33,643 nt of DNA. It comes from an uncultured archaeon (GTDB taxonomy: Archaea; Aenigmatarchaeota; Aenigmatarchaeia; CG10238-14; SCSR01). Location of the stretch: NCBI GenBank assembly GCA_964514495.1, contig CAZERL010000003.1, forward strand, positions 1 through 33,643, given 5' to 3'. The first letter of the stretch is position 1; each line of letters opens with the position of its first letter. The notes under the pieces were generated by a model, which was not told where the DNA came from, ran no database searches, and saw only the letters and a list, made by a program, of their open reading frames with translations. The position numbers were made by a program, and so were the translations under genes. Shown here in pieces: positions 1,335-30,721 of the stretch.

Positions 1335-3293
1335 CTAAAGAAGAGAGTATGCAACAATCAGACCCGCAAATAAAAGAGCCACCATATTCATAACCTTCAA
1401 AAGCGGATTGATTGACACTCCAGAACTGTCCTTTAACGGATCACCTACAGTATCACCTACAACACTTGCGGCATGTGCAAAACTTCCTTTACCGCCGAGA
1501 TTACCAGCTTCTATATACTTCTTTGCGTTGTCCCAAGCAGCACCCGCGGTCGTTTGAGTTATTGCCAACATCAGCCCTGACGTGATGCTTCCAGCAAGCA
1601 TTCCACCCAATGCCTCAGCCCCGAATATAAATCCTACAATTAACGGAGACATCACTGCAATAATACCTGGCGCTATTAATTCCTTTAATGCCGCTCTTGT
1701 TGTAATGTCTACGCATCTTTGATAATCTGGTTTGGCACTGCCTTGCATCAAACCTTTAATTGTTTTGAACTGTCTACGAACCTCTTCCACTACAGAGAAC
1801 GCAGTCTTGCCTACAGCCTTTATTATAAGAGAGGAAAATATAAATGGTATTACCGCGCCTATGAACAGCCCGATAACAACGTTTACATTTAAGATGTCAA
1901 TAACCTTCAAATCCGCATCGTGTGCATAAGCCACGAATAACGACAACGCTGCTAAAGCTGCACTACCAATGGCAAACCCTTTAGTAACAGCTTTTGTTGT
2001 ATTTCCAACAGCATCCAAAGCATCTGTATTCTTCCTGACTTTTGGCGGTAGTTTGGCCATTTCAGCTATTCCACCTGCATTATCTGTTATCGGTCCATAA
2101 GCATCAATTGCTACAAGCATTCCTGTAACAGAGAGCATACCTAAAGCCGCAACCACTACTCCATATATTCCTGCAAAATAAAATGCTGCAAAGATTGCGC
2201 CTGCAATCAAAATAGTTATAGGAAGTGTGCTTCTCATCCCTAGTGCTAATCCGCTAATTATGGTGGTGGCTGCCCCGGTCTTTGACGCTTCTGCAACTTC
2301 TCTAACTGCTTTTCTGTCTCTTCCAGTATAAAATTCTGTTATGTAACTGATGATTACCGTTACGCCTAATCCGACTATTGTCGCATAAAAGATATTCAGA
2401 TTTTGGAACATGAAAAAGGAAACAAGAAAGAATAAAACTGCCGCGATAACTGATGTTACAATAATTCCTTTAAACAAAGCCTTCCAGATGTCATTATCTT
2501 TACCCAACCTTACAAAAAAAGTCCCTATTACCGATGCTACTATTCCCGCAGCTCCTATTGTCAGAGGAAACAAGACAGCATTTGGCCCTATCAACGAACC
2601 TAAAAGCATCGCTGCAATCAATGTTACAGCATAAGATTCGAACAAGTCCGCAGCCATGCCAGCGCAATCGCCGACTGCATCGCCGATGTTGTCAGCAATG
2701 ACAGCAGGATTTCTTGGGTCGTCTTCTGGTATTCCTTTTTCTATTTTACCAACCAAATCAGCTCCCACATCTGCGGCTTTTGTATAAATGCCTCCGCCGA
2801 CTCTCATGAATAGACTCATCAAACTCGCGCCAAAACCAAACCCAATTAGAAGTTCTGGCTTGCCAAACAAAACAAACAAACCACTAACACCAAGCAAACC
2901 GAGCCCAACAACCATCATTCCTGTTACTGTCCCTCCTTTGAATGCAATGGATAAGGCTTGTTTCAAACCCTTGCTTGCTGCACTAGCTACACGTGAATTG
3001 GTTTTCACAGAAACGTTCATTCCCATGTATCCTGCTAATGCAGACATTATAACGCCAAGAACAAACGACAAAGTTGTTTCAAGGTTAATCAATAGGAGAA
3101 CCAAGGAAAGCACAACAACTACAGGAACCAATGTCTTGTACTGCCTGTTCAAGTATGCTGAAGAGCCGTCTTGGATTGCTTTTGATATCTCTTTCATCCT
3201 TGCTGTACCATCATCTTGTTTCATGACGTTTTGTGTCAATACAATTGAAAATACAACTGCCAGCAGACCGGCTAAGATAGTGAGTTCAATCAT
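1335..3293 (-). CDS. hppA: Membrane-bound H+-translocating pyrophosphatase, predicted K+-independent
   Basis: GGGIYTKAADVGADLVGKIE, EDDPRNPAVIAD, DAYGPITDNAGGIAEM, GNTTKA (Lys at the K+-dependence-determining site), WDNAKKYIE, GDTVGDPLKD; many TM segments. Confidence 0.95.
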   Translation of the reverse strand: MIELTILAGLLAVVFSIVLTQNVMKQDDGTARMKEISKAIQDGSSAYLNRQYKTLVPVVVVLSLVLLLINLETTLSFVLGVIMSALAGYMGMNVSVKTNSRVASAASKGLKQALSIAFKGGTVTGMMVVGLGLLGVSGLFVLFGKPELLIGFGFGASLMSLFMRVGGGIYTKAADVGADLVGKIEKGIPEDDPRNPAVIADNIGDAVGDCAGMAADLFESYAVTLIAAMLLGSLIGPNAVLFPLTIGAAGIVASVIGTFFVRLGKDNDIWKALFKGIIVTSVIAAVLFFLVSFFMFQNLNIFYATIVGLGVTVIISYITEFYTGRDRKAVREVAEASKTGAATTIISGLALGMRSTLPITILIAGAIFAAFYFAGIYGVVVAALGMLSVTGMLVAIDAYGPITDNAGGIAEMAKLPPKVRKNTDALDAVGNTTKAVTKGFAIGSAALAALSLFVAYAHDADLKVIDILNVNVVIGLFIGAVIPFIFSSLIIKAVGKTAFSVVEEVRRQFKTIKGLMQGSAKPDYQRCVDITTRAALKELIAPGIIAVMSPLIVGFIFGAEALGGMLAGSITSGLMLAITQTTAGAAWDNAKKYIEAGNLGGKGSFAHAASVVGDTVGDPLKDSSGVSINPLLKVMNMVALLFAGLIVAYSLL

Positions 3294-3297
3294 TGCC

Positions 3298-3660
3298 TCA
3301 ACCTATAGCTAAATGTTTTCTTGCCCTTAAATAAATAGTTTTCAGTCCTTTTTGCTTCAACTTCTGCCGCAATTTCCTGTCGTTTGTTGCTATCAGAAAA
3401 CTACCGGACAATTCAAATAAGTTCTTGTCTACATCTCCGGTAGTGTCTAAAATTTTTATTTTTCTGCCTTTCACCAGCTCCAGTGCAAGCTTTGCATACC
3501 TGCCATGCTTAAATTTTTTTGATACAGACTCAAGTTCGCTTATAGTTTTGTTTAACACATATAATTCCACAGGCTCTGAAACCAAATCATGTATTTCTAG
3601 CAAGTCTATTCTAAATCTACACAAATCCACGATGAAATTGGTGTCAAGTATAACTTTCAT
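3298..3660 (-). CDS. PIN-domain protein (Fcf1/Utp24-like rRNA processing nuclease)
   Basis: VILDTNF, EL, DVD, IATNDRKL PIN motifs; usual position between aIF2-gamma and rpoE'. Confidence 0.88.
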   Translation of the reverse strand: MKVILDTNFIVDLCRFRIDLLEIHDLVSEPVELYVLNKTISELESVSKKFKHGRYAKLALELVKGRKIKILDTTGDVDKNLFELSGSFLIATNDRKLRQKLKQKGLKTIYLRARKHLAIG

Positions 3661-6546: not shown

Positions 6547-6615
6547 ATGACCATAGTTCATAGAACTCAGGCCATAACTTGGCAATATTTCTATAGCTTT
6601 AGCTATGGTCAATAG
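6547..6615 (+). CDS. Putative aromatic-rich leader peptide MTIVHRTQAITWQYFYSFSYGQ (22 aa)
   Basis: 6 of the last 11 codons are W/Y/F; sits at the predicted transcript start; ATG lies within the stem TGACCATAGTT(6548-6558)/AGCTATGGTCA(6601-6611). Confidence 0.72.
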   Translation: MTIVHRTQAITWQYFYSFSYGQ

Positions 6616-6692
6616 ATGCCAGATAGTTGATTTATTTCTTGCATCTTATCTGGAGGTTCTAATTGACATATCAACAAAAAAGGGGTGAAAAT

Positions 6693-6767
6693 ATGGATAA
6701 CAAAGGTGAATTAGTTTGGAAGCAAGGTGAACGCCTTTACACAAAGGGCGAGTGTCTTTTCAAGTAG
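6693..6767 (+). other. Zero-frame sensor ORF MDNKGELVWKQGERLYTKGECLFK with three putative +1 frameshift cassettes (Trp, Tyr, Phe) leading into aspartate kinase
   Basis: Strong SD GGGGTGA-N4-ATG; cassettes GGT GAA TTA GTT TGG (6705), GGT GAA CGC CTT TAC (6726), GGC GAG TGT CTT TTC (6747); the +1 frame is the kinase frame and opens at 6715, right after TAG 6712-6714. Confidence 0.78.
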
Positions 6768-7890
6768 ACCTAAGATTATAAAAATTGGAGGCTCATGTTT
6801 AAGTTCAACAGAAGATATCAAAAGAATTGCTGATATACTTATTGGTCGAATTTCAGATAATGAAAAATTAGTAATTGTAATTTCTGCAATGAAAGGGGAT
6901 ACGGATAGGTTATTGGAATTGGCCAATTCTATTTCACCTAACGTTAGTAAAGAAGATCTTGATCAAATATTGTCAATAGGAGAACGTCTTTCATCTAGGC
7001 TATTAACAGCCGAACTAAAAAGCAGGGGCATTTCAACTAGGTTAATAGATCCAGACAATGCAGTTATAATTACAGATAATATTCATGGCGATGCTAATCC
7101 TATAATAGAATTTACAAAAGAAAAGGTAAACGACAAATTAGTTCCCTTGTTACAAAATGGTACTACTATAGTTACAGGTGGCTTTTTTGGCAAAAGTACT
7201 AGTGGCAAAACGACAACATTGGGACGAGGGGGAAGTGATTCTACAGCAGTTCTTCTTGGTGATTGTTTAAACGCAGAAGAGATAGTTCTTTTAAAAGATG
7301 TAGATGGCTTATTAACTTCTGATCCCAAGAAAAATAAAAATTCAAAACTTATCAAAAAAATTACTGCAGAAGAAGCATTCATTCTTAGCTGTAGTGGAGC
7401 TAAGATTATACAACCTAAATCTTTGAAGTTAAAACCTGCAAATGTTCCAATAAAAATAGTTGGGAATGGTTCTATAGGGACAGTAATAGAAGGTAGTCTA
7501 AAATTAATAAACCATGATGAAAGACCTGTAGCCTTGTTAACTGTACTGACATCTAATATAGAAGCAGTACATGGCATAAAAAATCTAACGATGGTTAGAG
7601 ATGATAAGAGTGCAACACTAATTATATTTCAAGAAGATGTTTCAAAAGCAATTGATGAATTAAACCAATTAATAGAAAAAAGTAAGGCAAAAGCCTTTAC
7701 TGTTAAAGAAAATCTTGGATTAGTTTCAATAAAATCTAGCTCAGACACAATTCCTAAAATAGTAAATTCTTTGGAACAATCTGGTATACAAATTGAGAAT
7801 ATCATTTCAACACCTTCTACAATTAACATTCTCATCAAACTTTTTGACACAGATAGAACCGTACAGCTTTTGAAAGAGGTGATAAGATGA
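6727..7890 (+). CDS. lysC: Aspartate kinase (probably translated from ATG 6693 via +1 frameshift)
   Basis: IIKIGGS, VISAM, GER, TTLGRGGSD, DVDG..TSDP, GAKII; C-terminal ACT-like region; the only in-frame start before the N-terminal motif is a GTG inside an SD-like motif. Confidence 0.93.
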   Translation: MNAFTQRASVFSSRPKIIKIGGSCLSSTEDIKRIADILIGRISDNEKLVIVISAMKGDTDRLLELANSISPNVSKEDLDQILSIGERLSSRLLTAELKSRGISTRLIDPDNAVIITDNIHGDANPIIEFTKEKVNDKLVPLLQNGTTIVTGGFFGKSTSGKTTTLGRGGSDSTAVLLGDCLNAEEIVLLKDVDGLLTSDPKKNKNSKLIKKITAEEAFILSCSGAKIIQPKSLKLKPANVPIKIVGNGSIGTVIEGSLKLINHDERPVALLTVLTSNIEAVHGIKNLTMVRDDKSATLIIFQEDVSKAIDELNQLIEKSKAKAFTVKENLGLVSIKSSSDTIPKIVNSLEQSGIQIENIISTPSTINILIKLFDTDRTVQLLKEVIR

Positions 7891-8948
7891 AAAAGAAAAT
7901 ACCAGTAGCTGTTTTAGGTGCAACAGGATTAGTTGGGCAGAAATTTATAGAATTGTTACAAAACCATCCAATGTTTGAAATAGCAGAATTGGTTGCATCA
8001 GAAAAATCAGTTGGTAAAAGATTTGCAGAAGCTTGCAATCAAATTGTCATTCCACATATAATGCCTGAAATAGAAAATATAATCGTTAAACCAACAAACC
8101 CAAATGAGGTAAATTCTAAATTGGTATTTTCTGCATTACCAGCAGACATAGCACTTAATGTTGAGAATGATTTTGCACGAGCAGGAAAAATAGTCATAAG
8201 TAAAGCCAGCGCATTCAGAATGGTCAAAGATGTACCGTTACTTATACCAGAAGTTAATTCAGAACATTTAGAATTATTGAAAATACAAAAAAATCAAAGG
8301 GATTTGGAAGGGTGTATAATAACTGATCCCAATTGTACAACTGCAGGATTAGCTTTAGTCCTAAAACCAATATTAGATAATTTCGGAATTAAGCAAGTTA
8401 ACGTAACAACTATGCAGGCATTGAGTGGTGCTGGATTTCCAGGTGTCCCTTCCTTATCAATATCAGATAACATCATACCATTCATCGATGGTGAAGAAGA
8501 AAAAGTTGAGAGAGAAACTCTAAAGATTTTAGGTAAACTTAATGGAAACAAAATAGACAATGCTCACTTCAAAATATTTGCAACATGCACCAGAGTTCCA
8601 GTAATTGACGGTCATACAGAAGTTGTAAATATAATAACTGAAAGGGATGCGTCAATTGAAGATTTGAAGAAAGCTTTGACTGAATTTAAAGGATTACCAC
8701 AAGAGCTTAGACTACCAAGTGCCCCAGAAAAACCTATAATAGTGAGAGAAGAATTGGATAGACCACAACCTAAATTAGATAGAGATTCTGGTAGAGGAAT
8801 GAGTGTAACTGTTGGCAGAATTAAGAAACTAGGAGAATGTAATTTCTCTCTTGTACTTCTTGTTCATAATCTGGTGCGTGGAGCAGCTGGTGCAGGTGTT
8901 CTGGATGCTGAATTGTTAGCTAAAACTAACTTAGTGGAGGTGAGTTGA
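7887..8948 (+). CDS. asd: Aspartate-semialdehyde dehydrogenase (archaeal type)
   Basis: VLGATGLVGQ, PNCTT catalytic Cys, TMQALSGAG, RVPVIDGH, HNLVRGAAG. Confidence 0.96.
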   Translation: MKKKIPVAVLGATGLVGQKFIELLQNHPMFEIAELVASEKSVGKRFAEACNQIVIPHIMPEIENIIVKPTNPNEVNSKLVFSALPADIALNVENDFARAGKIVISKASAFRMVKDVPLLIPEVNSEHLELLKIQKNQRDLEGCIITDPNCTTAGLALVLKPILDNFGIKQVNVTTMQALSGAGFPGVPSLSISDNIIPFIDGEEEKVERETLKILGKLNGNKIDNAHFKIFATCTRVPVIDGHTEVVNIITERDASIEDLKKALTEFKGLPQELRLPSAPEKPIIVREELDRPQPKLDRDSGRGMSVTVGRIKKLGECNFSLVLLVHNLVRGAAGAGVLDAELLAKTNLVEVS

Positions 8949-9733
8949 TGAACGGTAAGGAAATTAGATTAAACAGAATATTGGAAAAAGGTAAGGCAAT
9001 AATCATACCAATGGATCATGGGACTAGTGAAGGTCCTGTAACAGGATTAACGGATATGAACGATATGGTAAGGAAATTAGGTTCCGGTGGTGCCACTGCT
9101 GTATTGTTGCATAAAGGGATAATAAAATCTTTGAAAGAACCACCTAAATGCGGACTGATAATGCATGCATCAGCTAGTACAAAACTTGCATCCGATGTAA
9201 ATAATAAAGTTCTTGTATCTGAAGTGGAAGAAGCTGTCACGCTTGGTGCTGATGCTTTTTCTGTTCATATAAACATCGGTGGGAGTGATGCTGAACCAGA
9301 AATGTTGAAAGCATTAGGAAAAGTTGCAAGGGATTGCGAAAAAATGCAAATGCCATTGTTGGCAATGATGTATGCTAGAGGCAAAAATATACAAAACCAA
9401 CTTGATGCGGATGTCCTTGCGCACGTTGCTAGAGTTGGTGCAGAATTAGGGGCTGACTTAGTCAAATGTCCATATTCAGGAGATCCTGAAACTTTCAAAA
9501 AAGTAGTTAAGGGATGTCCAGTACCTGTAATAATAGCTGGTGGTCCTAAATATGAAACTGACAGAGAAGTATTAGAAATGGTTAGAGGGGCTATGGATGC
9601 TGGTGCAATAGGAGTTTCTTTAGGAAGGAATGCATTCCAGCATAAAAATCCAACACAGATAGTAAAGGCAATAAGAAGCATCATAGTAAAGGACTCCAGT
9701 GTGGAAGAAGCATTAAAGCTATTAGGTGAGTGA
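8945..9733 (+). CDS. 2-amino-3,7-dideoxy-D-threo-hept-6-ulosonate (ADH) synthase, class I aldolase DhnA family (AroA')
   Basis: GKEIRLNRI, PMDHG, LLHKG, AMMYARG, ELGADLVK, VIIAGGPK, GRNAFQH; context of asd and DHQ synthase II; ATG at 8948. Confidence 0.9.
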   Translation: MMNGKEIRLNRILEKGKAIIIPMDHGTSEGPVTGLTDMNDMVRKLGSGGATAVLLHKGIIKSLKEPPKCGLIMHASASTKLASDVNNKVLVSEVEEAVTLGADAFSVHINIGGSDAEPEMLKALGKVARDCEKMQMPLLAMMYARGKNIQNQLDADVLAHVARVGAELGADLVKCPYSGDPETFKKVVKGCPVPVIIAGGPKYETDREVLEMVRGAMDAGAIGVSLGRNAFQHKNPTQIVKAIRSIIVKDSSVEEALKLLGE

Positions 9734-10654
9734 ATGAGAGAGCTTATAGTAAAAACTGATAACCCAAAAATTCAGAAAGAAGCAAAAGGTTTAGGCTTAG
9801 AAATAGTTACAGAAGACGAAGCCATAGAAGTTAAAAATAGGAAAGACGAAGACGAAGCCATAAAGTTAGCTAGCAAAAAAGATAAGCTCATAATCTCGTC
9901 GCCAGATTGGAAAATAATTCCGTTGGAAAATTTAGTTTCAAAATTAAAAGGAAAAGTTAAATTAATTGCAAAAGTGAAAACAGCGGAGGAAGCAAAACTA
10001 GCTTTAGGTGCATTGGAACTTGGTGCTGATGGTGTTTTACTAGATACTGACAATGTGAATGAAATCAAGAAAACAATGTCTGCAATAGAAGAATTAGAAG
10101 AGAAAGGTAAGCTTCAGTTAGTTGAAGCTACTGTTACAAACATTAACAAACTGGACTTGGGTGCAAGATCCTGCATAGATACATGTAGTCTGATGGAAAA
10201 AGGAGAAGGCATGTTGGTTGGTTGCTCTTCTCAAGGCATGTTGTTAGTTCAAGCAGAAGTTGAGGAAAATCCGAGTGTTTCTCCAAGACCTTTTAGAGTC
10301 AATGCTGGAGCTGTTTCACTATATGTGTTAGCTCCAAACAACAAGACAAGGTACATAGAAGAAGTAAAAGCTGGCGATGAAGTTCTATTAGTAAACAAAA
10401 ATGGAAAAATTAGGTCAGCTTTCGTGGGTAGATCTAAGATTGAAATAAGGCCGTTGACATTAGTAGAAGCTGAAAGTAATGGAAAAGTTGCTAAAGCAAT
10501 ACTACAAACAGCTGAAACGATAAGACTTGTAACTACCGAAGATAGTAAACCAGTAACAGAGCTTAAAGTTGGAGATAAGATACTGACTTACTTTCAAGAG
10601 GGTGGAAGGCATTTTGGAACTTTAGTTAAAGATGAATACTGTGTGGAAAAATGA
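9734..10654 (+). CDS. 3-dehydroquinate synthase II (AroB')
   Basis: DWKIIPLENL, LELGADGV, R.CIDTCSLM..GEGMLVG, RPFRVNAGAV, QTAETIRL, GRHFG. Confidence 0.93.
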   Translation: MRELIVKTDNPKIQKEAKGLGLEIVTEDEAIEVKNRKDEDEAIKLASKKDKLIISSPDWKIIPLENLVSKLKGKVKLIAKVKTAEEAKLALGALELGADGVLLDTDNVNEIKKTMSAIEELEEKGKLQLVEATVTNINKLDLGARSCIDTCSLMEKGEGMLVGCSSQGMLLVQAEVEENPSVSPRPFRVNAGAVSLYVLAPNNKTRYIEEVKAGDEVLLVNKNGKIRSAFVGRSKIEIRPLTLVEAESNGKVAKAILQTAETIRLVTTEDSKPVTELKVGDKILTYFQEGGRHFGTLVKDEYCVEK

Positions 10655-11348
10655 GTTGACTTCTATGATCAGAATATGCGCAAGTATAACTGAAAGCAAT
10701 ATAGAAGATTGCCTTAAAGCTATTTCCAAAGCAAAAGAACTAGGTGCCAGAATAGTAGAACTACGTATAGACTTTTTGGATAACCATGAAGAGATTTCAA
10801 AAATAATTCAGCAGGCAAAACTACCTTTAATAGCGACAAACAGAAGTAAAAAAGAAGGCGGGGAATTTGAAGGAAATGAAGAAGAAAGGATTAATAGTCT
10901 CATCAATGCTATTGACGATGGATGTGAATTTGTTGACATAGAGTTAAATACAAACAAGAAATTGAGAGGACGAGTTACAAATCTTGCAAGAAGAAACAAA
11001 TGTGAAGTAATAGTTTCTATTCATGATTTTAAGAAAACTCCTAATATGAAAAATTTAAATAAATTATTAACTGAAGAAAAAGCGATAGCTGACATAGGGA
11101 AAATAGTTACTTTTGGTAACAAAAATGAAGATACTATAAAAATTTTCAATTTATTGAGAATAGCCAATTCTAGAAATTTCCCTTTGATAACTTTTGCTAT
11201 GGGTTCTTTATGTAGTTTCTCTAGAATAGTGGCTCCACTATTTGGTTCATATTTAACATATGTGTCGGTAGGCAAACCGTCTGCAATTGGACAGATGAAC
11301 ATAAGGGAGATGGTAAATGTTTACAAGCAATTAGGTGTGAAAATATGA
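10632..11348 (+). CDS. aroD: Type I 3-dehydroquinate dehydratase
   Basis: ICASI, VELRIDFL, IATNR..EGG, VDIEL, SIHDF..TP, FAMG, SRI, SAIGQ; true start probably ATG 10665. Confidence 0.93.
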   Translation: MNTVWKNELTSMIRICASITESNIEDCLKAISKAKELGARIVELRIDFLDNHEEISKIIQQAKLPLIATNRSKKEGGEFEGNEEERINSLINAIDDGCEFVDIELNTNKKLRGRVTNLARRNKCEVIVSIHDFKKTPNMKNLNKLLTEEKAIADIGKIVTFGNKNEDTIKIFNLLRIANSRNFPLITFAMGSLCSFSRIVAPLFGSYLTYVSVGKPSAIGQMNIREMVNVYKQLGVKI

Positions 11349-12205
11349 TTTCTAGCAAAACTAAATTATTATGCCTTATAGGCAATCCTGTAGAGCATAG
11401 TATATCACCTCAAATGCATAATGCTATGTTTAAAGAATTGAATTTAGATTTCGCACTTGTCTCATTCAAAGTTGAAGAAACTGAATTGTCTGATGCTGTT
11501 AAAGGTATTAGAGCATTAGGCATAAAAGGAGGCAATGTAACATTACCACACAAGACAAGCATAATGAAACTTTTAGATGAAATAGATGACTCATCAAAAG
11601 AAGTGGATTCTGTAAATACTTTTTTAAATGATAATGGCATACTTAAGGGGTTCAATACAGATGGTATAGGTGCGTTAAAGGCTTTGGAAGAAAATGGTAT
11701 ATCACTTAAAAATAAGAAGGTCGTCATTATTGGTGCAGGTGGTGCATCAAAATCAATATCACATGTTGTTGCAATGGAAAGTCCATCTGAACTTGTGATC
11801 TTAAATAGAAATATAAGTAAAGCCAAATCAATCGCAGACAAGATAAATAAAAAACTTGGTAAGAAAGCAAGAGTATTTGAACTAAGTTCAGAAAATTTAA
11901 AATCAGAATTGAAAGATACCGATATACTAATTAATTGCTCATCAGTTGGTATGAAGCCCAATTTAAATGAAACTACTGTGTCTAAAGAATTTCTTCATAA
12001 AAATCTTACAGTAATGGACATTATATACAATCCATTGGAAACTAGACTACTAAAAGAAGCCAAATCAGTAGGGGCAAAGACAATTAACGGTATTGGCATG
12101 TTGGTTAATCAAGGTGCCTTAGCGTTTGAAATATGGACTGGTAAAAAAGCTCCTGTTGAATTGATGAGAAGAGTTGCAATAGAAAACTTGAAGGGATTTA
12201 CATGA
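11345..12205 (+). CDS. aroE: Shikimate dehydrogenase
   Basis: IGNPVEHSISPQMHN, GGNVTLPHK, SVNT, GFNTDG, GAGGA, DIIYNPLET.LL, MLVNQG. Confidence 0.96.
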   Translation: MISSKTKLLCLIGNPVEHSISPQMHNAMFKELNLDFALVSFKVEETELSDAVKGIRALGIKGGNVTLPHKTSIMKLLDEIDDSSKEVDSVNTFLNDNGILKGFNTDGIGALKALEENGISLKNKKVVIIGAGGASKSISHVVAMESPSELVILNRNISKAKSIADKINKKLGKKARVFELSSENLKSELKDTDILINCSSVGMKPNLNETTVSKEFLHKNLTVMDIIYNPLETRLLKEAKSVGAKTINGIGMLVNQGALAFEIWTGKKAPVELMRRVAIENLKGFT

Positions 12206-12711
12206 AAGATAATGTTGCTTTAATTGGATTCATGGGTACTGGAAAGAATTCAGTAGGGATTTCATTAGCCAAAAGGTTCAACAAAAAATTTATTGATACA
12301 GATATCCTAATTGAAAAATTAGCAGGTAAATCCATTCCAAAGATATTCAAAGAAGATGGGGAAATCAAATTCCGTGAATTAGAAATAGAAGCGATAAAGA
12401 AAGTCGCAAAAATGAAAAATGTTGTCATATCGTGTGGTGGAGGTGTCGTCCTAAATCAAATAAATATAGATAGGTTAAGAAAAAACTCAAAAATAATCTT
12501 GCTTACAGCTTCACCCAATGTTATTTTAAAAAGAATAAAAAGTGGTAAACAAAATCGTCCTCTTTTAAAAGTCTCTAATAAACTCAATACGGTTAAACAA
12601 CTTCTATCATTAAGAAAGCCTTTGTACAAAATGTCAGCAGATTACACAATAGATACTTCTAGGTTAAATGAAGGAAAGGTTGTTAACAAAACAATAGAAC
12701 TTTTGAGGTAA
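12202..12711 (+). CDS. aroK: Shikimate kinase (bacterial NMP-kinase-fold type)
   Basis: LIGFMGTGK Walker A, DTD, GE..FRELE, SCGGGVV, RPLL, R..LY. Confidence 0.94.
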   Translation: MKDNVALIGFMGTGKNSVGISLAKRFNKKFIDTDILIEKLAGKSIPKIFKEDGEIKFRELEIEAIKKVAKMKNVVISCGGGVVLNQINIDRLRKNSKIILLTASPNVILKRIKSGKQNRPLLKVSNKLNTVKQLLSLRKPLYKMSADYTIDTSRLNEGKVVNKTIELLR

Positions 12712-12715
12712 TTTT

Positions 12716-13972
12716 ATGATAGCTACAATCGAAACTAGTGAAATAAATGGAACTGTTGCTTCACCTCCTTCTAAGAGTTACACCCATAGGTCTATAATAT
12801 GTGCAGCTCTGGCAAATGGACGAAGTAAAATCATGAATCCTTTGTTAGCTGATGATACACATGCAACTATTGATGTATTAAGCAAAATAGGAGTAGGGAT
12901 TTCTGGAAATAATGATCATATAATTGTCAAAGGAAATGGTCTTTCTGAACCTAAAGAGGAATTATTTTGCAAGGAATCTGGAACTACTCTTAGGTTGATG
13001 ACATCTGTGTGTTCTTTAATCAAAGGCAGATGTAAACTAACTGGTAGCTTGTCACTATTAAAAAGACCTATAAAACCTTTAGTTGATGCTCTTGAAAAGT
13101 TAGGTGTCAATTGCTCTTGTAATGGCAACTTCCCACCTGTTATTGTAAATAACAACCTTATGGGTGGCATAACTAAAGTGCCTGGTGATATCAGCTCACA
13201 ATTTATTTCTGGATTACTCTTAGTTGCGCCGTTAACACAAAAAGAAACACAAATTTTACTGTCAACAGAACTTGAATCAAAACCTTACGTGATGATGACA
13301 ATTGATGTGCAAAAAGATTTTGGAATTGAAATAAAAACTAGCAAAAATTTAAGGAAATTTTCTGTAACTAGACAAGAGTATAAACCAAGAAATTACAAAG
13401 TAGAAGGCGATTGGTCTGCTGCATCTTTTCCACTAGCTGCAGGTGCAATTGCTGGTAGAGTTGAAGTAACTAACATAGATAATGAAAGCTTACAGGCAGA
13501 TAGAAAAATAATTGATGTACTGAAAATGATGGGTGCTAGCCTAAAGACTACATCAAAAGGTATTTTAGTGATTAAATCTAGGTTAAATGCAATAGATTTT
13601 GATGTTTCAAACTGTCCAGATTTATTTCCAATAGTATGTGTATTATGTTCTGCTGCTAATGGTACTAGCAAAATTTCTGGAATTAGAAGATTGCTGTTGA
13701 AAGAATCCAACAGGCTTGATGAGATGAAAAATGGTCTAACAAAAATGGGAGTAAAAGTAAAACAATCAAGAGACTCTATACAAATAACAGGTTCTCAAGT
13801 TAAAGGAAGTACAATAAATTCAAATGACCATAGGATTTCAATGGCATTTGGTATCTTAGGAATGATTGCTAAAGGTAAAACTATAATAAAAAATGCAGAA
13901 TGTGTTAGTAAATCTTTCCCAGAATTTTGGAATTATTTAAGCAAGTTAAATTCGAATCTTGATATAAGGTGA
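12716..13972 (+). CDS. aroA: EPSP synthase (3-phosphoshikimate 1-carboxyvinyltransferase)
   Basis: PPSKSYTHR, ESGTTLR, ISSQFISGLL, SKPYV.MT, EGDWS, KESNR, DHRISM, KSFPEF. Confidence 0.96.
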   Translation: MIATIETSEINGTVASPPSKSYTHRSIICAALANGRSKIMNPLLADDTHATIDVLSKIGVGISGNNDHIIVKGNGLSEPKEELFCKESGTTLRLMTSVCSLIKGRCKLTGSLSLLKRPIKPLVDALEKLGVNCSCNGNFPPVIVNNNLMGGITKVPGDISSQFISGLLLVAPLTQKETQILLSTELESKPYVMMTIDVQKDFGIEIKTSKNLRKFSVTRQEYKPRNYKVEGDWSAASFPLAAGAIAGRVEVTNIDNESLQADRKIIDVLKMMGASLKTTSKGILVIKSRLNAIDFDVSNCPDLFPIVCVLCSAANGTSKISGIRRLLLKESNRLDEMKNGLTKMGVKVKQSRDSIQITGSQVKGSTINSNDHRISMAFGILGMIAKGKTIIKNAECVSKSFPEFWNYLSKLNSNLDIR

Positions 13973-13976
13973 CATT

Positions 13977-15071
13977 ATGAATGGCAATAGTATAGGCAAA
14001 GCGTTCAAGGTAACAAGTTTCGGAGAAAGTCATGGAAGATGTGTAGGTGCAATTATAGACGGTTGTCCTGCAGGTTTAAAGCTAGATACAGAAAAAATTC
14101 AGAGAGATCTAGATAGAAGAAAACCTGGACAAAGTACAATAACAACTGCCAGGAGGGAGGAAGACAAATTAGAAATAATATCAGGGGTTTTAAACGAATT
14201 TACTACTAGTGCACCAATTTGTATGCTAACATGGAACAAAGATGTAATTTCGAGTGGCTATGAACAAAGAAGATTTACAGTGAGACCAGGCCATGCTGAT
14301 TACACAGCATTCATGAAATACGGCGGGTTCGAAGATTACAGGGGAGGTGGAAGGTTTTCTGCTAGAATAACCACTGGATTTGTGATGGCAGGCGCTTTAG
14401 CAAAACAATTACTGAGTTTGTTAAATATAGAAATTCTAGCGCATACTGTTGAAATTGGTGGAATCAAAGCTAGAGAAATGTCGGTTGACGATATAAGAAA
14501 AAATACGGAAACAAATGAGGCAAGATGTGCTGATTCAGAAACTGCTAAAAAAATGATAGAAAGAATAAAGCAAGTAAGACTTGAAAAGGATAGCTTAGGA
14601 GGACTTGTTGAAGGTATTGCTTTGAATGTTCCAGTTGGTTTAGGTGAACCTGTTTTTGATAATTTGGATAGTGAATTAGCTAAAGCACTATTTGCTATAC
14701 CTGCAGTTAAAGCAGTAGAATTTGGTTTAGGATTTCAAAGTAGTAGACTAAAAGGCTCTGAAAATAATGATATTTTTGTTATGAAAAAAGGTAAGATTGT
14801 AACTAAAACAAATAATTCTGGGGGAATATTGGGCGGCTTAAGTAATGGTATGCCTATTGTTGTTAAAGTGGGTTTTAAACCTATATCATCCATTCCAAAA
14901 GAACAAAAAACTATTAACATGAAAGAAATGAAAGAAACGGAAATAAAATCTATTGGTAGATTTGACCCTTGCCCTGTGCCAAGAGCAATTCCTATTGTTG
15001 AATCTATGATGGCTATAGTGTTGTGCGACTTTGCACTTCGTTCACAATTGATTCCAAGAGTGATTAAATGA
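13977..15071 (+). CDS. aroC: Chorismate synthase
   Basis: FGESHG, RRKPGQ, RPGHAD, GGGRFSARIT, DSLGG, NNSGGILGG, GRFDPC. Confidence 0.97.
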   Translation: MNGNSIGKAFKVTSFGESHGRCVGAIIDGCPAGLKLDTEKIQRDLDRRKPGQSTITTARREEDKLEIISGVLNEFTTSAPICMLTWNKDVISSGYEQRRFTVRPGHADYTAFMKYGGFEDYRGGGRFSARITTGFVMAGALAKQLLSLLNIEILAHTVEIGGIKAREMSVDDIRKNTETNEARCADSETAKKMIERIKQVRLEKDSLGGLVEGIALNVPVGLGEPVFDNLDSELAKALFAIPAVKAVEFGLGFQSSRLKGSENNDIFVMKKGKIVTKTNNSGGILGGLSNGMPIVVKVGFKPISSIPKEQKTINMKEMKETEIKSIGRFDPCPVPRAIPIVESMMAIVLCDFALRSQLIPRVIK

Positions 15072-18317: not shown

Positions 18318-18353
18318 ATGAAGAGTGATTGTGTTTGGCATACCAAGAAGTGA
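18318..18353 (+). other. Zero-frame sensor ORF MKSDCVWHTKK with a Trp +1 frameshift cassette leading into the wHTH gene
   Basis: (G)AGT GAT TGT GTT TGG; the +1 frame is the wHTH ORF; near-leaderless ATG. Confidence 0.7.
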
Positions 18354-18624
18354 ATTTAAGATTTTCTTAGGACAATCGCTCAACAAAAAAGAAACTGAAT
18401 TGCTTCGTTCTTCCAATAGGTTACGAGGAAATACCTTTTATTATGTGGTTAAGAGGTTGTCAGAGAAGGGGTATTCACCAAGTACAATCAAATTTGTTCT
18501 AAAGCGACTTAAATATTTAAACTTGGTTGATTTTGGCGATGGCAAAAGCAGAGGCAAGCCCCTCGTATTAACTGCGTTAGGTCAGATATTCCTAGAAGTC
18601 ATCAGTGGTGAAAAGTATGGGTGA
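18325..18624 (+). CDS. Winged helix-turn-helix protein, putative transcription regulator of trp/aro genes
   Basis: Basic 99 aa protein; SPSTIKFVLKRLKYLNLVDF recognition helix and LTALGQ wing end. Confidence 0.72.
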   Translation: MIVFGIPRSEFKIFLGQSLNKKETELLRSSNRLRGNTFYYVVKRLSEKGYSPSTIKFVLKRLKYLNLVDFGDGKSRGKPLVLTALGQIFLEVISGEKYG

Positions 18625-18679
18625 ATATCTTTGGAAATGCAATGAACTTTGTAGCTCCCAAAAGAATCAAAATAGATAA
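18617..18679 (+). other. Zero-frame sensor [23 protein letters not shown] with a Trp +1 frameshift cassette leading into trpE
   Basis: SD GGTGA(18607)-N5-ATG; GGT GAA TAT CTT TGG; the +1 frame is trpE. Confidence 0.7.
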
Positions 18680-19991
18680 GAAAATAGATACAAAATTTTC
18701 GCCTTTTGAAATTTACTGTAAGATTAATGAAAATTTTGGAACTTCTTTCCTTTTAGAATCAAGAGAAGGTAAAAGAAAGTTGGCTAGATTCTCTTTTATA
18801 GGATTTGAGCCTTCTCATATATTAAAAGCAAATAGCAAATTCCTAACTATCAATGATAAGAAGATTATTTGTAAAGATCCCTTATTAGAATTGCGTTCAA
18901 TAGTTTCTAAAAAATTTGGGATTAGATCTGGTTTCTTAGGCGGTGCAGTAGGATACATAACCTATGATTATGTCAGAAGTATAGAAACTATACCTAATAC
19001 AACAAAAGATGAATTCAAGTTTCCAGATTTCGAATTCGGTATATTTCAAGATTGCTTAGTATTTAATCATAGGAAAAATGAATTGAGATATCTTTCATGT
19101 GATAAGAATAGATTACCTTTAATTAAAAAAATCATACATAAAGAAACCAATAACTCTAATCTAGAGATTGGAAAAATAAAAGCAAACATGAGTAAAAGAA
19201 GATTTGAAAACATCGTAAGCAAATCTAAAGAATACATAAAAAGTGGTGATATACTCCAAGTGGTTTTGTCTAGAAGGTACAAATTCTCTTTTAAAGGAAA
19301 CCTTATTGAATTTTACAAAAATCTCAGAAAAATCAACCCATCACCATACATGTATTACATAAAATTTGGAAAAAGACAAATTATTGGAACTAGTCCTGAG
19401 AATCTAGTTAGAGTAGAAGGCAAAAAAATAGATAGCTATGCAACCATTGCTGGAACAAGACATAGAGGGAAAACAAAAGCCGAAGATAAAAAGTTAGAAA
19501 AGGAATTGTTGTCAGATAAAAAGGAACGAGCAGAACATCTGATGCTTGTAGATCTGACAAGGAATGACATTGGAAAGGTATCTAGTTTTGGTTCTGTCAA
19601 AGTTCCAGAGTTCATGCAAGTATACAAATTCAGTCATGTACAACATATTGTATCTAGAGTCGCAGGAAAATTAAACAACCATGATTGTTTTGACGTATTC
19701 AAATCCATATTCCCTGCTGGAACAGTCAGTGGTGCACCGAAGATTAGAGCAATGGAAATAATTGAAGAATTAGAACCTGCTAAAAGAGGACCTTATGCTG
19801 GTGCAGTTGGTTATTTTTCCTTTAATGGTAATGCTGACTTTGCGATAACTATCAGAAGCCTATTTGCAAATGACAATAAGGCATTTATTCAGGTTGGAGC
19901 CGGCATAGTATACGATTCTATTCCAGAAAGAGAATTTTTTGAAACAGAAAATAAAGCAAAGGCTTTGTTAAAGGCTTTAAAAGGTGATTAA
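18621..19991 (+). CDS. trpE: Anthranilate synthase component I
   Basis: [66 protein letters not shown]. Confidence 0.96.
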
Positions 19992-19993
19992 AA

Positions 19994-20533
19994 GTGAGTC
20001 AATTAGATGAAATTAAAAATGAATTAAAAATATATTCAGATTTCCCAAAAAAAGGAATTAAGTTTTTAGATATCAGTCCATTAATCAGCAATCCAAAGAA
20101 TTTTAGAACAGTAATAAATGCTCTATACAAAAAATACAAAAATTCTGGAATAAATAAAATAATTGCTGTCGAATCTCGTGGGTTCTTGTTTGCTAGTGCA
20201 TTAGCATTGTTAATGAAAGCTCCTTTGGTTATGGCTAGGAAGAAAGGCAAACTTCCAGGTACTGTTATTAGTTATTATTACAAATCAGAATATGGTAAAA
20301 ACGTACTTGAACTACGAAAAGATTCAATTAATCCAAATGATAAACCTTTGGTACTTGATGATGTTTTCGCAACTGGAGGTACGCTTAATGCAGTTATATC
20401 CATTTTGAAGAAAATAGGCTGTTCTGATTATAGATGTTGTACAATAATAAATCTGACGGATATCGAAAAGAAATATAATCCTGGTAATGTTAACTCTTTG
20501 ATTGATTTTTCTGTTAATGGTGAGATTCTATGA
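19994..20533 (+). CDS. apt: Adenine phosphoribosyltransferase-like type I PRTase
   Basis: [50 protein letters not shown] loop. Confidence 0.88.
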
Positions 20534-21108
20534 AAATTCTTATTATTGATAATTACGATTCATTCGTATACAATCTTTACCAATATTTTGGTAGTTTGGG
20601 AAATGATGTAATTGTAATCAGGAGTGATAAACTTACACTAGAAGACGTTAGCAAATTAGCACCAGACAAGATTGTAATATCACCTGGTCCAGGTTCACCT
20701 GAAGATAGGAAATATTTTGGTGTCTGTTTGGATGTTATAAAAAGATTCGGTAAAAAAATTCCAATATTGGGAGTTTGTTTGGGACATCAAGGAATAATTT
20801 ATTCATTTGGCGGCAGGATAGTTAGGGCAAAAGAACCAATGCATGGTAAAACTAGTTCAATTAAACACAATGGTAAAGATATTTTCAAAGATATACCAAA
20901 TCCAATTATAGGAACTAGGTATCATTCTTTAGTTGGTGAAAAATCTTCATTACCTCAATGTTTAGAGGTAACTGCAACCAGTTTAGATGACAAGGAAATA
21001 ATGGCAATAAAACATAAAGAATATCCTATATATGGCGTCCAATTTCATCCTGAAGCTATAATGACACAACATGGTATGAGGATAATTGAAAATTTTTTGG
21101 TGATTTGA
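20530..21108 (+). CDS. trpG: Anthranilate synthase component II (glutamine amidotransferase)
   Basis: IDNYDSF.YNL.QY, ISPGPG.P, GVCLGHQ, HGK.S, RYHSL, GVQFHPE. Confidence 0.96.
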
Positions 21109-30622: not shown

Positions 30623-30721
30623 TGCCCCCGGAGGGATTTGAACCCTCGACCTTCTCCTGACTCCAAATTTAGAAGGGAGCTGCTATAGACTTTCCATCTA
30701 TCCGAACTGAGCTACAGGGGC
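30623..30721 (-). tRNA. tRNA-Arg(UCU) with two introns (13 nt in D-arm, 30685-30697; 11 nt at 37/38, 30659-30669)
   Basis: Acceptor GCCCCTG/CGGGGGC, T-arm GAGGG-TTCAAAT-CCCTC, anticodon TCT at 30673-30671, A20; removing both inserts gives a 75-nt cloverleaf; no encoded CCA. Confidence 0.88.

What the first reader, a model, noticed from the sequence alone, without database searches (positions are those of the whole stretch)
6682..6767. Three-input (Trp/Tyr/Phe) +1 frameshift 'OR gate' gating the first enzyme of the aromatic pathway
Seen: the strong SD+ATG (GGGGTGA-N4-ATG 6693) opens a 24-codon ORF that is one base out of frame with aspartate kinase. It contains three units at exact 21-nt spacing: GGT GAA TTA GTT TGG, GGT GAA CGC CTT TAC and GGC GAG TGT CTT TTC. 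Each unit is an SD-like GG(T/C)GA, 4 nt, a (G/C)TT codon, then one codon each for Trp, Tyr and Phe. All aromatic codons begin with T, so a +1 slip places the P-site tRNA on TTT every time. The +1 frame is the kinase frame and is open from exactly the first slip site (stop TAG 6712-6714, then TTT 6715). The GTG called by the ORF track (6727) lies inside the second SD-like motif. Known: the layout resembles bacterial prfB (RF2) +1 frameshifting (internal SD, CUU-U slip, slow A-site), and hungry codons are known to promote +1 shifts. Inference: shortage of any one aromatic aminoacyl-tRNA stalls the A site and diverts ribosomes into aspartate kinase and the translationally coupled operon; when amino acids are plentiful they stop at TAG 6765. 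I know of no described system of this kind. Caveat: the SD spacing equals the initiation spacing used by this cluster's genes, so its stimulatory role is unproven.
Basis: partly seen in the sequence, partly recalled or inferred. Interest (0 to 1): 0.97.

Follow-up and report, generated by a model that had tools for sequence, protein, structure and literature searches.

The report
Aromatic-sensing +1 frameshift gate
A short decoy reading frame ahead of an archaeal aromatic amino-acid operon seems to let ribosomes slip into the enzyme's frame only when tryptophan, tyrosine or phenylalanine is scarce, and the same device sits at the tryptophan genes of many other small archaea.

Summary
A strong SD plus ATG (6693) opens a 24-codon ORF one base out of frame with the aspartate kinase that heads an AK-ASADH-AroA'-AroB'-aro operon. 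It carries three 21-nt units: SD-like motif, N4, (G/C)TT, then TGG, TAC or TTC. An independent metagenome contig has the same frames and no indel. In a sample of another archaeal phylum, 12 of 47 trpE heads have an SD-led leader ending X-TGG with TrpE in the +1 frame. Five of these have no TrpE-frame start upstream of the shift site, and two have none at all. Three of five homologous AK operon heads carry Tyr and Phe units. The gated enzymes are depleted of the sensed amino acids. The best reading is a hungry-codon programmed +1 frameshift used as feedback control (about 0.68). A conventional GTG start cannot be excluded for this AK, and there is no expression evidence. An aromatic-rich classical leader peptide (6547-6615) lies upstream. 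My literature searches found no description of this. It is a new variant of sensor frameshifting, of high interest.

The parts
6547..6615 (+). Upstream leader peptide 1, MTIVHRTQAITWQYFYSFSYGQ*, with 6 aromatic residues of 22. It looks like a classical attenuation-type leader.
   Evidence: Homologous aromatic-rich peptides precede 5 micrarchaeal AK heads and 3 of 4 DAHP-synthase heads. The core AGCTTTAGCTAT is invariant in the 4-way alignment.
6616..6681 (+). Spacer with competing short stems (6614-6623/6637-6646 versus 6619-6625/6647-6653) and T tracts. Its role is unknown.
   Evidence: The fold z-score is -1.62, which is not significant.
6682..6688 (+). Shine-Dalgarno GGGGTGA, 4 nt before ATG 6693.
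6693..6767 (+). Leader ORF 2 (frame 0), 24 codons, MDNKGELVWKQGERLYTKGECLFK*.
   Evidence: It is identical in L059.
6705..6719 (+). Unit 1: GGTGA-ATTA-GTT-TGG (Trp). The +1 frame opens at TTT 6715, just after TAG 6712-6714.
   Evidence: This unit is extra relative to the 2-unit micrarchaeal leaders.
6726..6740 (+). Unit 2: GGTGA-ACGC-CTT-TAC (Tyr). It contains GTG 6727 in the AK frame.
6747..6761 (+). Unit 3: GGCGA-GTGT-CTT-TTC (Phe).
6715..7890 (+). Aspartate-kinase frame (+1). The called ORF is GTG 6727-7890. The conserved KIGGS motif begins about 16 codons after GTG 6727. The protein has 0 Trp and 0 Tyr.
7887..15071 (+). Overlapping or abutting operon genes: ASADH, AroA' (DeoC-type), DHQ synthase II, aroD, aroE, aroK, aroA, aroC.
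18318..18353 (+). Leader of the small wHTH ORF, MKSDCVWHTKK*, with the unit AGTGA-TTGT-GTT-TGG at 18324-18338. No SD precedes it, so the mRNA may be leaderless.
18322..18624 (+). Small winged-helix-like ORF in the +1 frame (GTG 18325 or 18331).
   Evidence: Pfam finds nothing. Atlas hits give MarR/wHTH leads only.
18607..18611 (+). SD GGTGA, 5 nt before ATG 18617.
18617..18679 (+). trpE leader [23 protein letters not shown], with the unit GGTGA-ATAT-CTT-TGG at 18620-18634.
18621..19991 (+). trpE in the +1 frame. GTG 18621 lies inside the SD-like word. The internal ATG 18642 is not conserved in the 85% relative.

Best explanation
The leader is a sensor made of programmed +1 ribosomal frameshift sites. 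Ribosomes load at the strong SD and ATG 6693 and translate the 24-codon leader. At each unit the P site holds a (C/G)UU codon and the A site waits for Trp-, Tyr- or Phe-tRNA. When the charged tRNA is plentiful the codon is read, the ribosome goes on, and it stops at TAG 6765 without making enzyme. When any one of the three is scarce the A site stays empty. The peptidyl-tRNA then re-pairs one base downstream on UUU, the same CUU-to-UUU move as in prfB, and the ribosome continues in the aspartate-kinase frame and through the overlapping operon genes. Three sites in series act as a logical OR. A single-Trp version gates trpE and a small winged-helix protein in the same cluster. Shown here: the sequence anatomy, its recurrence, its conservation, and the absence of any alternative start in some homologues. 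Inferred: the slip itself, its dependence on aminoacyl-tRNA supply, and the helper role of the SD-like or encoded Gly/Asp/Glu element.
For: Anatomy is confirmed. No indel appears in an independent contig. The A-site codon matches the pathway. It is TGG at all 13 trpE gates (window plus 12 micrarchaeal loci). At AK heads 7 of 8 units carry an aromatic codon: TGG, TAC and TTC in the window, TAC and TTC in L169, TAT in L170 and L168, with one CTC in L170. An SD plus start lies 5-10 codons before the TGG in all 13 trpE gates (weak in L152). The P-site codon is CTT in 10, TTT in 1, CAT in 1 and CGT in 1. The TrpE frame has no ATG/GTG/TTG upstream of the shift in L137, L149, L151, L152 and L156. In L151 and L152 it has none anywhere before the conserved LLES motif. 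The shift site lies 27-38 codons before that motif, close to where plain-start homologues begin (about 26-29 codons before it). Between L140 and L143, changes downstream of TGG are mostly synonymous in the TrpE frame and all non-synonymous in the leader frame (read by eye). Leader stops vary from +3 to +30 codons, which argues against reinitiation. TrpE relatives at 85% and 68% identity keep V/M-N-x-F-G while the rest of the N-terminus diverges. In the AK relative at 80% identity, both N-terminal changes fit GAA/GAG changes that are silent in the leader frame; this is a protein-only inference. AK homologues start 3-6 residues before KxGGS, so the window's roughly 12-residue extension is the dual-coded stretch. 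tRNA-Leu(GAG) is present. The enzymes are built for starvation. AK plus ASADH have 0 Tyr in 740 aa (P about 2e-12). AK through AroC have W 6 against 25.8 expected, Y 22 against 99.1 and F 80 against 140.1. TrpE, PRT, TrpG and TrpD have 0 Trp in 1165 aa (P about 2e-5). No terminator or antiterminator fold surrounds the leader (z -0.34 and -0.25).
Against: There is no expression, proteomic or ribosome-profiling evidence. The window's AK and trpE each have an in-frame GTG (6727, 18621), and gene callers pick the same start position in the 80-85% relatives, so ordinary initiation could supply some or all of the protein here. In L169 each AK unit has an AK-frame ATG two codons before TTT. L168 and L170 also have AK-frame starts. 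The SD-like word in the window sits at the genome's normal initiation spacing, not the tight prfB spacing. Unit 1 and the wHTH site use GTT, and L149 and L145 use CAT and CGT, which re-pair poorly after a +1 move. About 20 in-frame copies of the relaxed motif lie inside ordinary long ORFs (my tally by eye), including aroC 14643. The CTT-TGG codon pair is not avoided (35 observed, 37.2 expected), so the motif alone cannot be strongly shifty. Close relatives are few, and DNA for the 80%, 85% and 68% relatives could not be fetched. pheA heads (25 inspected) and DAHP-synthase heads (4) show no gate.
Confidence: 0.68

Rival explanations
1. AK starts conventionally at GTG 6727 and TrpE at GTG 18621. 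The ATG-led ORF is an overlapping upstream ORF that competes with or tunes that initiation. Its aromatic codons modulate how long ribosomes cover the true start, and no frame change occurs.
For: In-frame GTGs exist. The caller's start lies at the same position in the 80% and 85% relatives. AK-frame ATG or GTG codons exist in L168, L169 and L170.
Against: A ribosome paused at any of the aromatic codons would cover or sit just upstream of the GTG, so starvation would lower expression, which is the wrong sign. GTG 6727 has no SD of its own, while ATG 6693 has the best one. Five micrarchaeal trpE gates have no TrpE-frame start upstream of the shift, and two have none at all. This reading does not explain the conserved CTT before the aromatic codon.
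Confidence: 0.15
2. A +1 frameshift does occur but at a fixed ratio. It sets a low, constant translation level or merely adds an N-terminal tag, and it does not sense amino-acid supply.
For: All the structural evidence for frameshifting applies equally. No data on regulation exist.
Against: The A-site codon tracks the pathway product in 20 of 21 units (13 trpE gates plus 8 AK units). Codons for Trp, Tyr and Phe each occur once in the window leader. The gated enzymes are depleted of exactly those residues.
Confidence: 0.08
3. The 21-bp-phased repeats are DNA operator sites for a transcription factor, for example the small winged-helix protein encoded before trpE. Their coding appearance is incidental.
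For: The 21-bp phasing equals two helical turns. Copies lie at the regulator's own gene and at trpE. An inverted repeat and TGTACA-type boxes lie near promoters in related loci.
Against: The sites lie inside translated sequence downstream of an SD. The variable positions spell W, Y and F in the ATG frame and W at the trp genes. Micrarchaeal sites share the codon logic but not a common DNA word (AGGGAT..., GGCGGT..., GGTGAA...). The frame relations are conserved.
Confidence: 0.04
4. The frame break is an assembly or sequencing indel, or the genes are decaying pseudogenes.
For: The genome is a 130-contig MAG. T runs are error-prone on some platforms.
Against: The same frames occur in a contig from another study with 0 gaps. 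Three sites in one window and 15 loci in other genomes share the same break at the same motif. The downstream ORFs are intact with full Pfam domains.
Confidence: 0.02

Closest known systems
Bacterial prfB (release factor 2) autoregulatory +1 frameshift
   Same: A short zero-frame ORF, a CUU-U shift with tRNA-Leu re-pairing on UUU, a slow A site, an upstream SD-like word, and the product made only after the shift as negative feedback. The micrarchaeal sites (AGGGAU-N3-CUU-U) even copy the prfB spacing, compared here with the prfB site as I recall it.
   Different: [quoted passage not shown] In the window the SD-like word sits at initiation spacing. The host is archaeal, several sites lie in series, and the genes are unrelated to RF2.
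Hungry-codon frameshifting (Gallant's E. coli work) and yeast Ty1 CUU-AGG-C
   Same: P-site CUU with a slow-to-decode A-site sense codon gives +1 slippage. Amino-acid starvation raises it.
   Different: Those cases are laboratory constructs or a retrotransposon with a constitutively rare tRNA. The 2016 review I read in passages states that no example is known of such frameshifting making a starvation-specific trans-frame protein (PMC5009743).
Antizyme (OAZ1) polyamine-sensing +1 frameshift
   Same: The frameshift acts as both sensor and effector in a feedback loop on a biosynthetic pathway.
   Different: It senses polyamines at a stop codon, it is eukaryotic, and more metabolite gives more shifting and less synthesis. 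Here less metabolite is proposed to give more shifting.
Leader-peptide transcription attenuation (trpL, pheL, hisL)
   Same: A short leader ORF whose regulatory codons read the supply of charged tRNA for the pathway's own product. An ORF of exactly this kind (6547-6615) lies just upstream.
   Different: Leader 2 overlaps the structural gene, has single rather than tandem regulatory codons, and has no terminator or antiterminator fold. The output is a change of frame, not transcript elongation. Frameshifting in E. coli pheL is described as incidental (PMC3082878; I saw only the title and the start of the abstract).
Archaeal recoding known so far (fucA1 -1 PRF in Saccharolobus solfataricus)
   Same: Programmed frameshifting in a cellular archaeal gene.
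   Different: It is a -1 shift on A-AAA-AAT with no known sensing role. The 2021 review says it is the only reported archaeal PRF case, apart from proposals for viruses and Mg-chelatase (PMC8211752, passages).

Membership tests
prfB-type SD-stimulated +1 PRF | A short zero-frame ORF that ends soon after the shift site, with the functional product in +1 | tested here: met
prfB-type SD-stimulated +1 PRF | CUU-U slippery P-site context | tested here: met
   CTT-T occurs in units 2 and 3 and at trpE. Unit 1 and the wHTH site have GTT-T. Ten of 13 trpE gates have CTT.
prfB-type SD-stimulated +1 PRF | The A-site codon is the stop codon UGA read by the gene's own product | tested here: not met
   The A-site codons are TGG, TAC/TAT and TTC.
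prfB-type SD-stimulated +1 PRF | An internal SD 3 nt upstream of CUU, which is too close for initiation | tested here: not met
   The window has GGTGA-N4, the modal initiation spacing of this genome. Micrarchaeal AGGGAT-N3-CTT fits by sequence only.
prfB-type SD-stimulated +1 PRF | The gene encodes release factor 2 | tested here: not met
   The Pfam domains are AA_kinase and Chorismate_bind/Anth_synt_I_N.
Hungry-codon +1 frameshift used for regulation | Shift efficiency rises when the A-site aminoacyl-tRNA is limiting | not testable with these tools
   This needs a reporter or a cell-free assay. Only codon identity and enzyme composition speak for it.
Hungry-codon +1 frameshift used for regulation | A trans-frame protein is actually made | not testable with these tools
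   No RNA run was listed and no proteomics is available. Indirect support: no alternative start in L151 and L152.
Classical leader-peptide transcription attenuator | A terminator hairpin with a U run and a competing antiterminator downstream of the leader | tested here: not met
   For leader 2 the fold z-scores are -0.34 and -0.25. For leader 1 in the window the result is inconclusive (z -1.62). A hairpin plus T7 is seen in L228.
Classical leader-peptide transcription attenuator | A leader ORF separate from the structural gene and rich in regulatory codons | tested here: not met
   Leader 2 overlaps AK and has one codon of each kind. Leader 1 (6547-6615) does meet this feature, with 6 aromatic residues of 22.
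Rfam leader or riboswitch families | A covariance-model match at or near the gathering score | tested here: not met
   The best hit scored 22 bits against cut-offs of 35-208.

The most novel reading that the evidence does not exclude
DPANN archaea carry a family of 'frameshift attenuators'. These are short SD-led leaders in which a single hungry codon for the pathway's end product diverts ribosomes by +1 into the first biosynthetic gene. They can be stacked in series as a logical OR (Trp/Tyr/Phe here, Tyr/Phe in Micrarchaeota, Trp alone at trpE). They are paired with an upstream classical aromatic-rich leader peptide. If so, this is the first natural use of hungry-codon frameshifting to make starvation-specific proteins and the first ribosome-mediated amino-acid sensing described in Archaea.
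Probability: 0.6. Interest if true: 0.95.

Novelty: new variant of a known kind. Interest (0 to 1): 0.9.

Why it matters
Sensor frameshifts are known for a release factor (prfB) and for polyamines (antizyme). Amino-acid supply is classically read by leader-peptide attenuation, T-boxes or repressors. A natural switch that reads charged-tRNA supply through a change of reading frame would join the two ideas. It would fill a gap stated in the 2016 frameshifting review, which says no examples are known. It would also give Archaea, where no leader-peptide control has been shown to my knowledge, a ribosome-based feedback device. The serial three-codon layout is a compact biological OR gate that can be tested directly with reporters. 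There is a practical consequence for annotation. Gene callers mis-start or truncate these genes: the window's own TrpE was called from an internal ATG that is not conserved, and some micrarchaeal TrpE ORFs have no start codon at all. The result also bears on how genome-reduced DPANN archaea that keep aromatic biosynthesis regulate it.

Tried and rejected
Relatives in the same order (60 genomes), the same family (69) and the same phylum sample (370) lack the operon. AK orthologues were not found (best 30% identity). TrpE was found in 0 of 69. DHQS-II was found in 3 of 370 at 37-43% identity and without the operon. Comparative support therefore had to come from metagenome proteins and from another phylum.

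The genome contigs and metagenome-contig scans with AK gave only one close locus, L059.

For sequencing runs, no RNA holder was listed and only contigs were laid, not raw reads.

RNA structure around both leaders is not significant, and no Rfam family matches.

I looked for gates at other heads. Of 30 pheA loci, 25 were printed and inspected by eye, and 5 with long open frames upstream were not inspected. None showed a gate, and L224 has no in-frame start and remains unexplained. Four DAHP-synthase heads have a plain SD plus ATG. AroA' is absent from 9 of 10 gate-type micrarchaeal genomes searched.

I tested the idea that loss of the frameshift-suppressing factor aMBF1 permits the device. TIGR00270 was not found above its cut-off in G000. 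Full-length matches were found in 5 of 5 gate-type and 4 of 5 plain-type micrarchaeal genomes, so there is no correlation and the idea is dropped.

Codon-pair avoidance of CTT/GTT followed by an aromatic codon was not seen.

ARAGORN found only 14 tRNAs in the MAG, so the tRNA complement could not be assessed beyond the presence of tRNA-Leu(GAG).

The C54:2679 site (GGTGA-TACT-CTT-TAT before a 220-codon ORF) has no Pfam match and runs into masked N, so it stays unresolved.

A conserved GGTGR-TTTTATT-GTG head in five other TrpE loci contains TTG-TGG in another frame. I judged it an ordinary SD plus GTG start.

Supplementary files of papers were not consulted.

Literature searches for a prior description were made, and none was found. 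The library lacks most subscription journals.
Full report
WHAT IS THERE. The window comes from a 1.04-Mb, 130-contig archaeal MAG of a small-genome lineage. It has 37.5% GC and is 95% complete. Contig C3 carries eIF2-gamma that is 83-92% identical to same-genus genomes, so the contig belongs to the bin. From 6.7 kb onward it encodes, on the + strand and mostly with overlapping stops and starts, a long aromatic cluster. The genes are an AA_kinase protein, aspartate-semialdehyde dehydrogenase, a DeoC-type aldolase (AroA'), DHQ synthase II, aroD, aroE, aroK, aroA, aroC, chorismate mutase, pheA, an aminotransferase and tyrA. After a gap come a 99-aa ORF, trpE, a PRT-domain gene, trpG, trpD, trpC, trpB and trpA. 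These are followed by a class I W/Y-type aaRS gene (Pfam tRNA-synt_1b) and both PheRS subunits. From established knowledge of the archaeal DKFP route, aspartate semialdehyde is a substrate of AroA'.

THE OBSERVATION. The genome's 16S rRNA ends ...GGATCACCTCCT, so GGTGA is a genuine SD word. In 552 long ORFs the GGTGA-to-ATG distance peaks at 4 nt. ATG 6693 is therefore a first-rate start. The relaxed motif occurs 6 times in the window against 1.99 expected, with 1 of 100 shuffles as high. It occurs 76 times in the genome. Five of the six window copies stand at gene heads, each with a short frame 0 and a long +1 ORF opening at that point. A contig from a different study (L059, the same as an X5 record) carries 33 SNPs and 0 gaps over 6661-8297. 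It is identical across the SD and the whole leader. An assembly indel is therefore very unlikely, although only contigs and not raw reads could be laid.

Three things were missed.

First, trpE has the same device. GGTGA, 5 nt and ATG 18617 are followed by GGT GAA TAT CTT TGG, reading MGEYLW... with a stop at 18677. TrpE lies in +1 and a GTG sits inside the GGTGAA word.

Second, the small ORF before trpE has it too. ATG 18318 is followed by AAG AGT GAT TGT GTT TGG, with the ORF in +1. Both sites use Trp codons only. This is the logic expected if the codon is the sensor: a three-amino-acid gate on the common pathway and a Trp gate on the Trp branch.

Third, 80 nt upstream of the SD lies another small ORF, 6547-6615, reading MTIVHRTQAITWQYFYSFSYGQ*. 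It has the look of a classical attenuation leader.

RELATIVES. The operon was not found in 60 order-level, 69 family-level or 370 phylum-level genomes searched. Protein searches found an AK at 80% identity whose N-terminus is MSAFTQRANVFSSRPK, against MNAFTQRASVFSSRPK in the window. Both differences can be produced by GAA/GAG changes that are silent in the leader frame. This is an inference from protein only. Other AK homologues begin 3-6 residues before the KxGGS motif, so the window's extension is exactly the dual-coded stretch. TrpE relatives at 85% and 68% identity begin MNIFGNIINF... and VNVFGLEDKS.... The V/M-N-x-F-G word, which is GTGAA-NNNN-TTTGG, is kept while what follows diverges. 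The internal ATG 18642, which the public gene call of this very contig used as the start, is not conserved.

ANOTHER PHYLUM. TrpE's nearest named homologues are micrarchaeal, so I searched 401 genomes of that phylum. I fetched 49 TrpE loci and could place the 5' end in 47.

Twelve of these have a start codon 5-10 codons upstream of a TGG codon, with TrpE in the +1 frame from that point. The start is preceded by a recognisable SD word (GGTGA, AGGTGA, GAGGTG, GGGGTG, GAGGA or AGAGGGA); in L152 the SD is weak. The loci are L122, L127, L137, L140, L143, L144, L145, L148, L149, L151, L152 and L156.

The codon before TGG is CTT in nine of them, TTT in one, CAT in one and CGT in one. The TrpE frame has no ATG/GTG/TTG upstream of the shift in five loci. 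In L151 and L152 it has none at all between the preceding stop and the conserved LLES motif. The shift point lies 27-37 codons before that motif, close to where plain-start homologues begin (about 26-29 codons before it). Leader stops fall anywhere from 3 to 30 codons after TGG, which speaks against termination-reinitiation.

Between the close pair L140 and L143, the differences downstream of TGG are mostly silent in the TrpE frame and all replacement in the leader frame. I read this by eye, and the sample is small.

Most micrarchaeal sites read AGG GAT NTA CTT TGG. This puts an AGGG word at the same distance from CUU as in the prfB site as I recall it.

THE AK GATE HAS HOMOLOGUES. Of the five best AK matches in that phylum, L168, L169 and L170 head AK-ASADH-AroA' operons like the window's. 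L169 reads SD-N5-ATG TGT GGA AAG AAG GAA AGG GAT GTC CTT TAC ATC GGA AGG GAT GTC CTT TTC AGA CTG TGA. That is a Tyr unit and a Phe unit 21 nt apart, with AK in +1. L170 has a Tyr unit and a decayed second unit (CTT CTC). L168 has one Tyr unit with CGG in the P site. The four regulatory regions align from leader 1 through the SD to the units. The window's Trp unit appears as an extra unit added to a two-unit Tyr/Phe leader. In these three loci AK-frame ATG or GTG codons do exist, so they do not by themselves force a frameshift reading.

SUPPORTING BIOLOGY. AK plus ASADH contain no Tyr and no Trp in 740 residues (P about 2e-12 for Tyr at the genome's 3.6% frequency). The nine enzymes from AK to AroC hold 6 Trp, 22 Tyr and 80 Phe, against 25.8, 99.1 and 140.1 expected. 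TrpE, the PRT protein, TrpG and TrpD hold no Trp in 1165 residues. Such cognate depletion is what one expects of proteins that must be made when those amino acids are short. tRNA-Leu(GAG), which reads CUU by wobble and can re-pair on UUU, is encoded.

MECHANISM. The best-supported model is a programmed +1 frameshift at a hungry codon. I hold the frameshift route at about 0.75 for the trpE class and about 0.68 for this AK leader as a regulated gate.

Shown: the anatomy, its recurrence, its conservation in two phyla, the match between codon and pathway, and the absence of any alternative start in some homologues.

Inferred: the slip itself, its dependence on charged-tRNA supply, the OR logic, and any stimulation by the SD-like word or by the encoded Gly/Glu/Asp-x-Leu peptide. 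Nucleotide and peptide conservation cannot be separated with these data. For example, unit 3 keeps Gly-Glu but weakens the SD word.

Against the model: in-frame GTGs exist in the window. GTT, CAT and CGT P-site codons re-pair poorly. Roughly 20 in-frame copies of the motif sit in ordinary genes, including aroC 14643. The CTT-TGG pair is not avoided. The bare motif therefore cannot be very shifty and would need starvation, high leader traffic or further context.

RIVALS. A plain GTG start with a regulatory overlapping uORF (0.15) gives the wrong regulatory sign and fails for the start-less homologues. Fixed-ratio frameshifting (0.08) ignores the codon-pathway match. Operator repeats (0.04) do not explain the codon logic or the differing DNA words. 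Artefact (0.02) is contradicted by independent contigs and by 15 loci elsewhere.

KNOWN SYSTEMS AND NOVELTY. The device works like prfB and like Ty1-type hungry-codon shifting. Functionally it stands in for leader-peptide attenuation. It is not a member of the prfB family, because it has a sense codon rather than UGA and an unrelated gene. It is not a member of the classical attenuators either, because it has no terminator switch and overlaps the structural gene. No Rfam family matches. The 2016 review by Atkins and colleagues, read in passages, says of hungry-codon frameshifting that it could make trans-frame proteins specific for starvation but that no examples are known. The 2021 review of archaeal recoding, read in passages, reports a single demonstrated PRF case in archaea, the -1 shift in fucA1. 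Five full-text searches found no description of frameshifting at trpE or at aromatic operon leaders. The library lacks most subscription journals, and supplements were closed. I rate the finding a new variant of a known kind (sensor frameshifting) with high interest.

LIMITS. DNA of the closest relatives could not be fetched. The pheA and DAHP-synthase checks were made by eye. The substitution-pattern argument rests on a few short pairs.

Noticed in passing
window 6547-6615 (+) and spacer 6616-6692; L166-L170, L228, L229, L231: An aromatic-rich small ORF (MTIVHRTQAITWQYFYSFSYGQ*) lies upstream of the frameshift leader. Homologous peptides (...FFSFSFWY*, ...FWFFSFSYGH* and others) precede micrarchaeal AK heads and DAHP-synthase heads. 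In L228 the peptide is followed by a CCAACACCAAAC...GTTTGTTGTTGG hairpin plus T7. This looks like classical leader-peptide attenuation in archaea and may be a finding in its own right.
   Followed up: partly
window 18318-18624 (+): A 99-aa ORF with no Pfam match, and winged-helix/MarR-like only by Atlas leads, sits just before trpE and is itself behind a Trp unit. It may be a regulator made only under Trp shortage.
   Followed up: partly
window 6727-15071 and 18621-22121: The pathway enzymes are strongly depleted of the pathway's own products. AK plus ASADH have 0 Tyr and 0 Trp in 740 aa. TrpE through TrpD have 0 Trp in 1165 aa.
   Followed up: yes
L117, L121, L124, L126-L128, L131, L132, L136, L137, L139, L144 and others, upstream of trpE: Micrarchaeal trpE promoters show TGTACA/TGTATA-type palindromes flanking a TTTAAATA box. 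From memory this resembles TrpY-type operator boxes. I did not test it.
   Followed up: no
G000 contig C54, about 2667-3350 (L196): ATG AAA ATA ATT GGT GAT ACT CTT TAT is followed by a roughly 220-codon +1 ORF with no Pfam family that runs into masked N. It may be a further Tyr unit or may be chance.
   Followed up: partly
window 6500-33000 versus relatives: The whole aro/trp/aaRS cluster was not found in 69 family-level genomes. Its regulatory region aligns with micrarchaeal operon heads, which suggests the operon was acquired together with its control region.
   Followed up: partly
window 30623-30721 (-): Rfam calls a 99-nt tRNA (43 bits) that ARAGORN misses. It may carry an intron. ARAGORN finds only 14 tRNAs in the whole MAG.
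   Followed up: no
window 19994-20533 (+): A phosphoribosyltransferase-domain gene is inserted between trpE and trpG, which is unusual for trp operons.
   Followed up: no
L224 (G559:C40), pheA head: The PDT frame has no ATG/GTG/TTG in the 19 open codons before the alignment starts. An SD-led ATG lies in another frame that would need a -1/+2 change. This is unexplained.
   Followed up: no
L154, L158, L159, L160, L162, trpE heads: A third TrpE head type has a conserved GGTGR-TTTTATT-GTG GAG TTC. I judged it an ordinary SD plus GTG start, although TTG-TGG appears in another frame.
   Followed up: partly
G000 whole genome: The archaeal MBF1 family (TIGR00270) was not found above its cut-off in this 95%-complete MAG. 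It was found at full length in 9 of 10 micrarchaeal genomes checked.
   Followed up: partly
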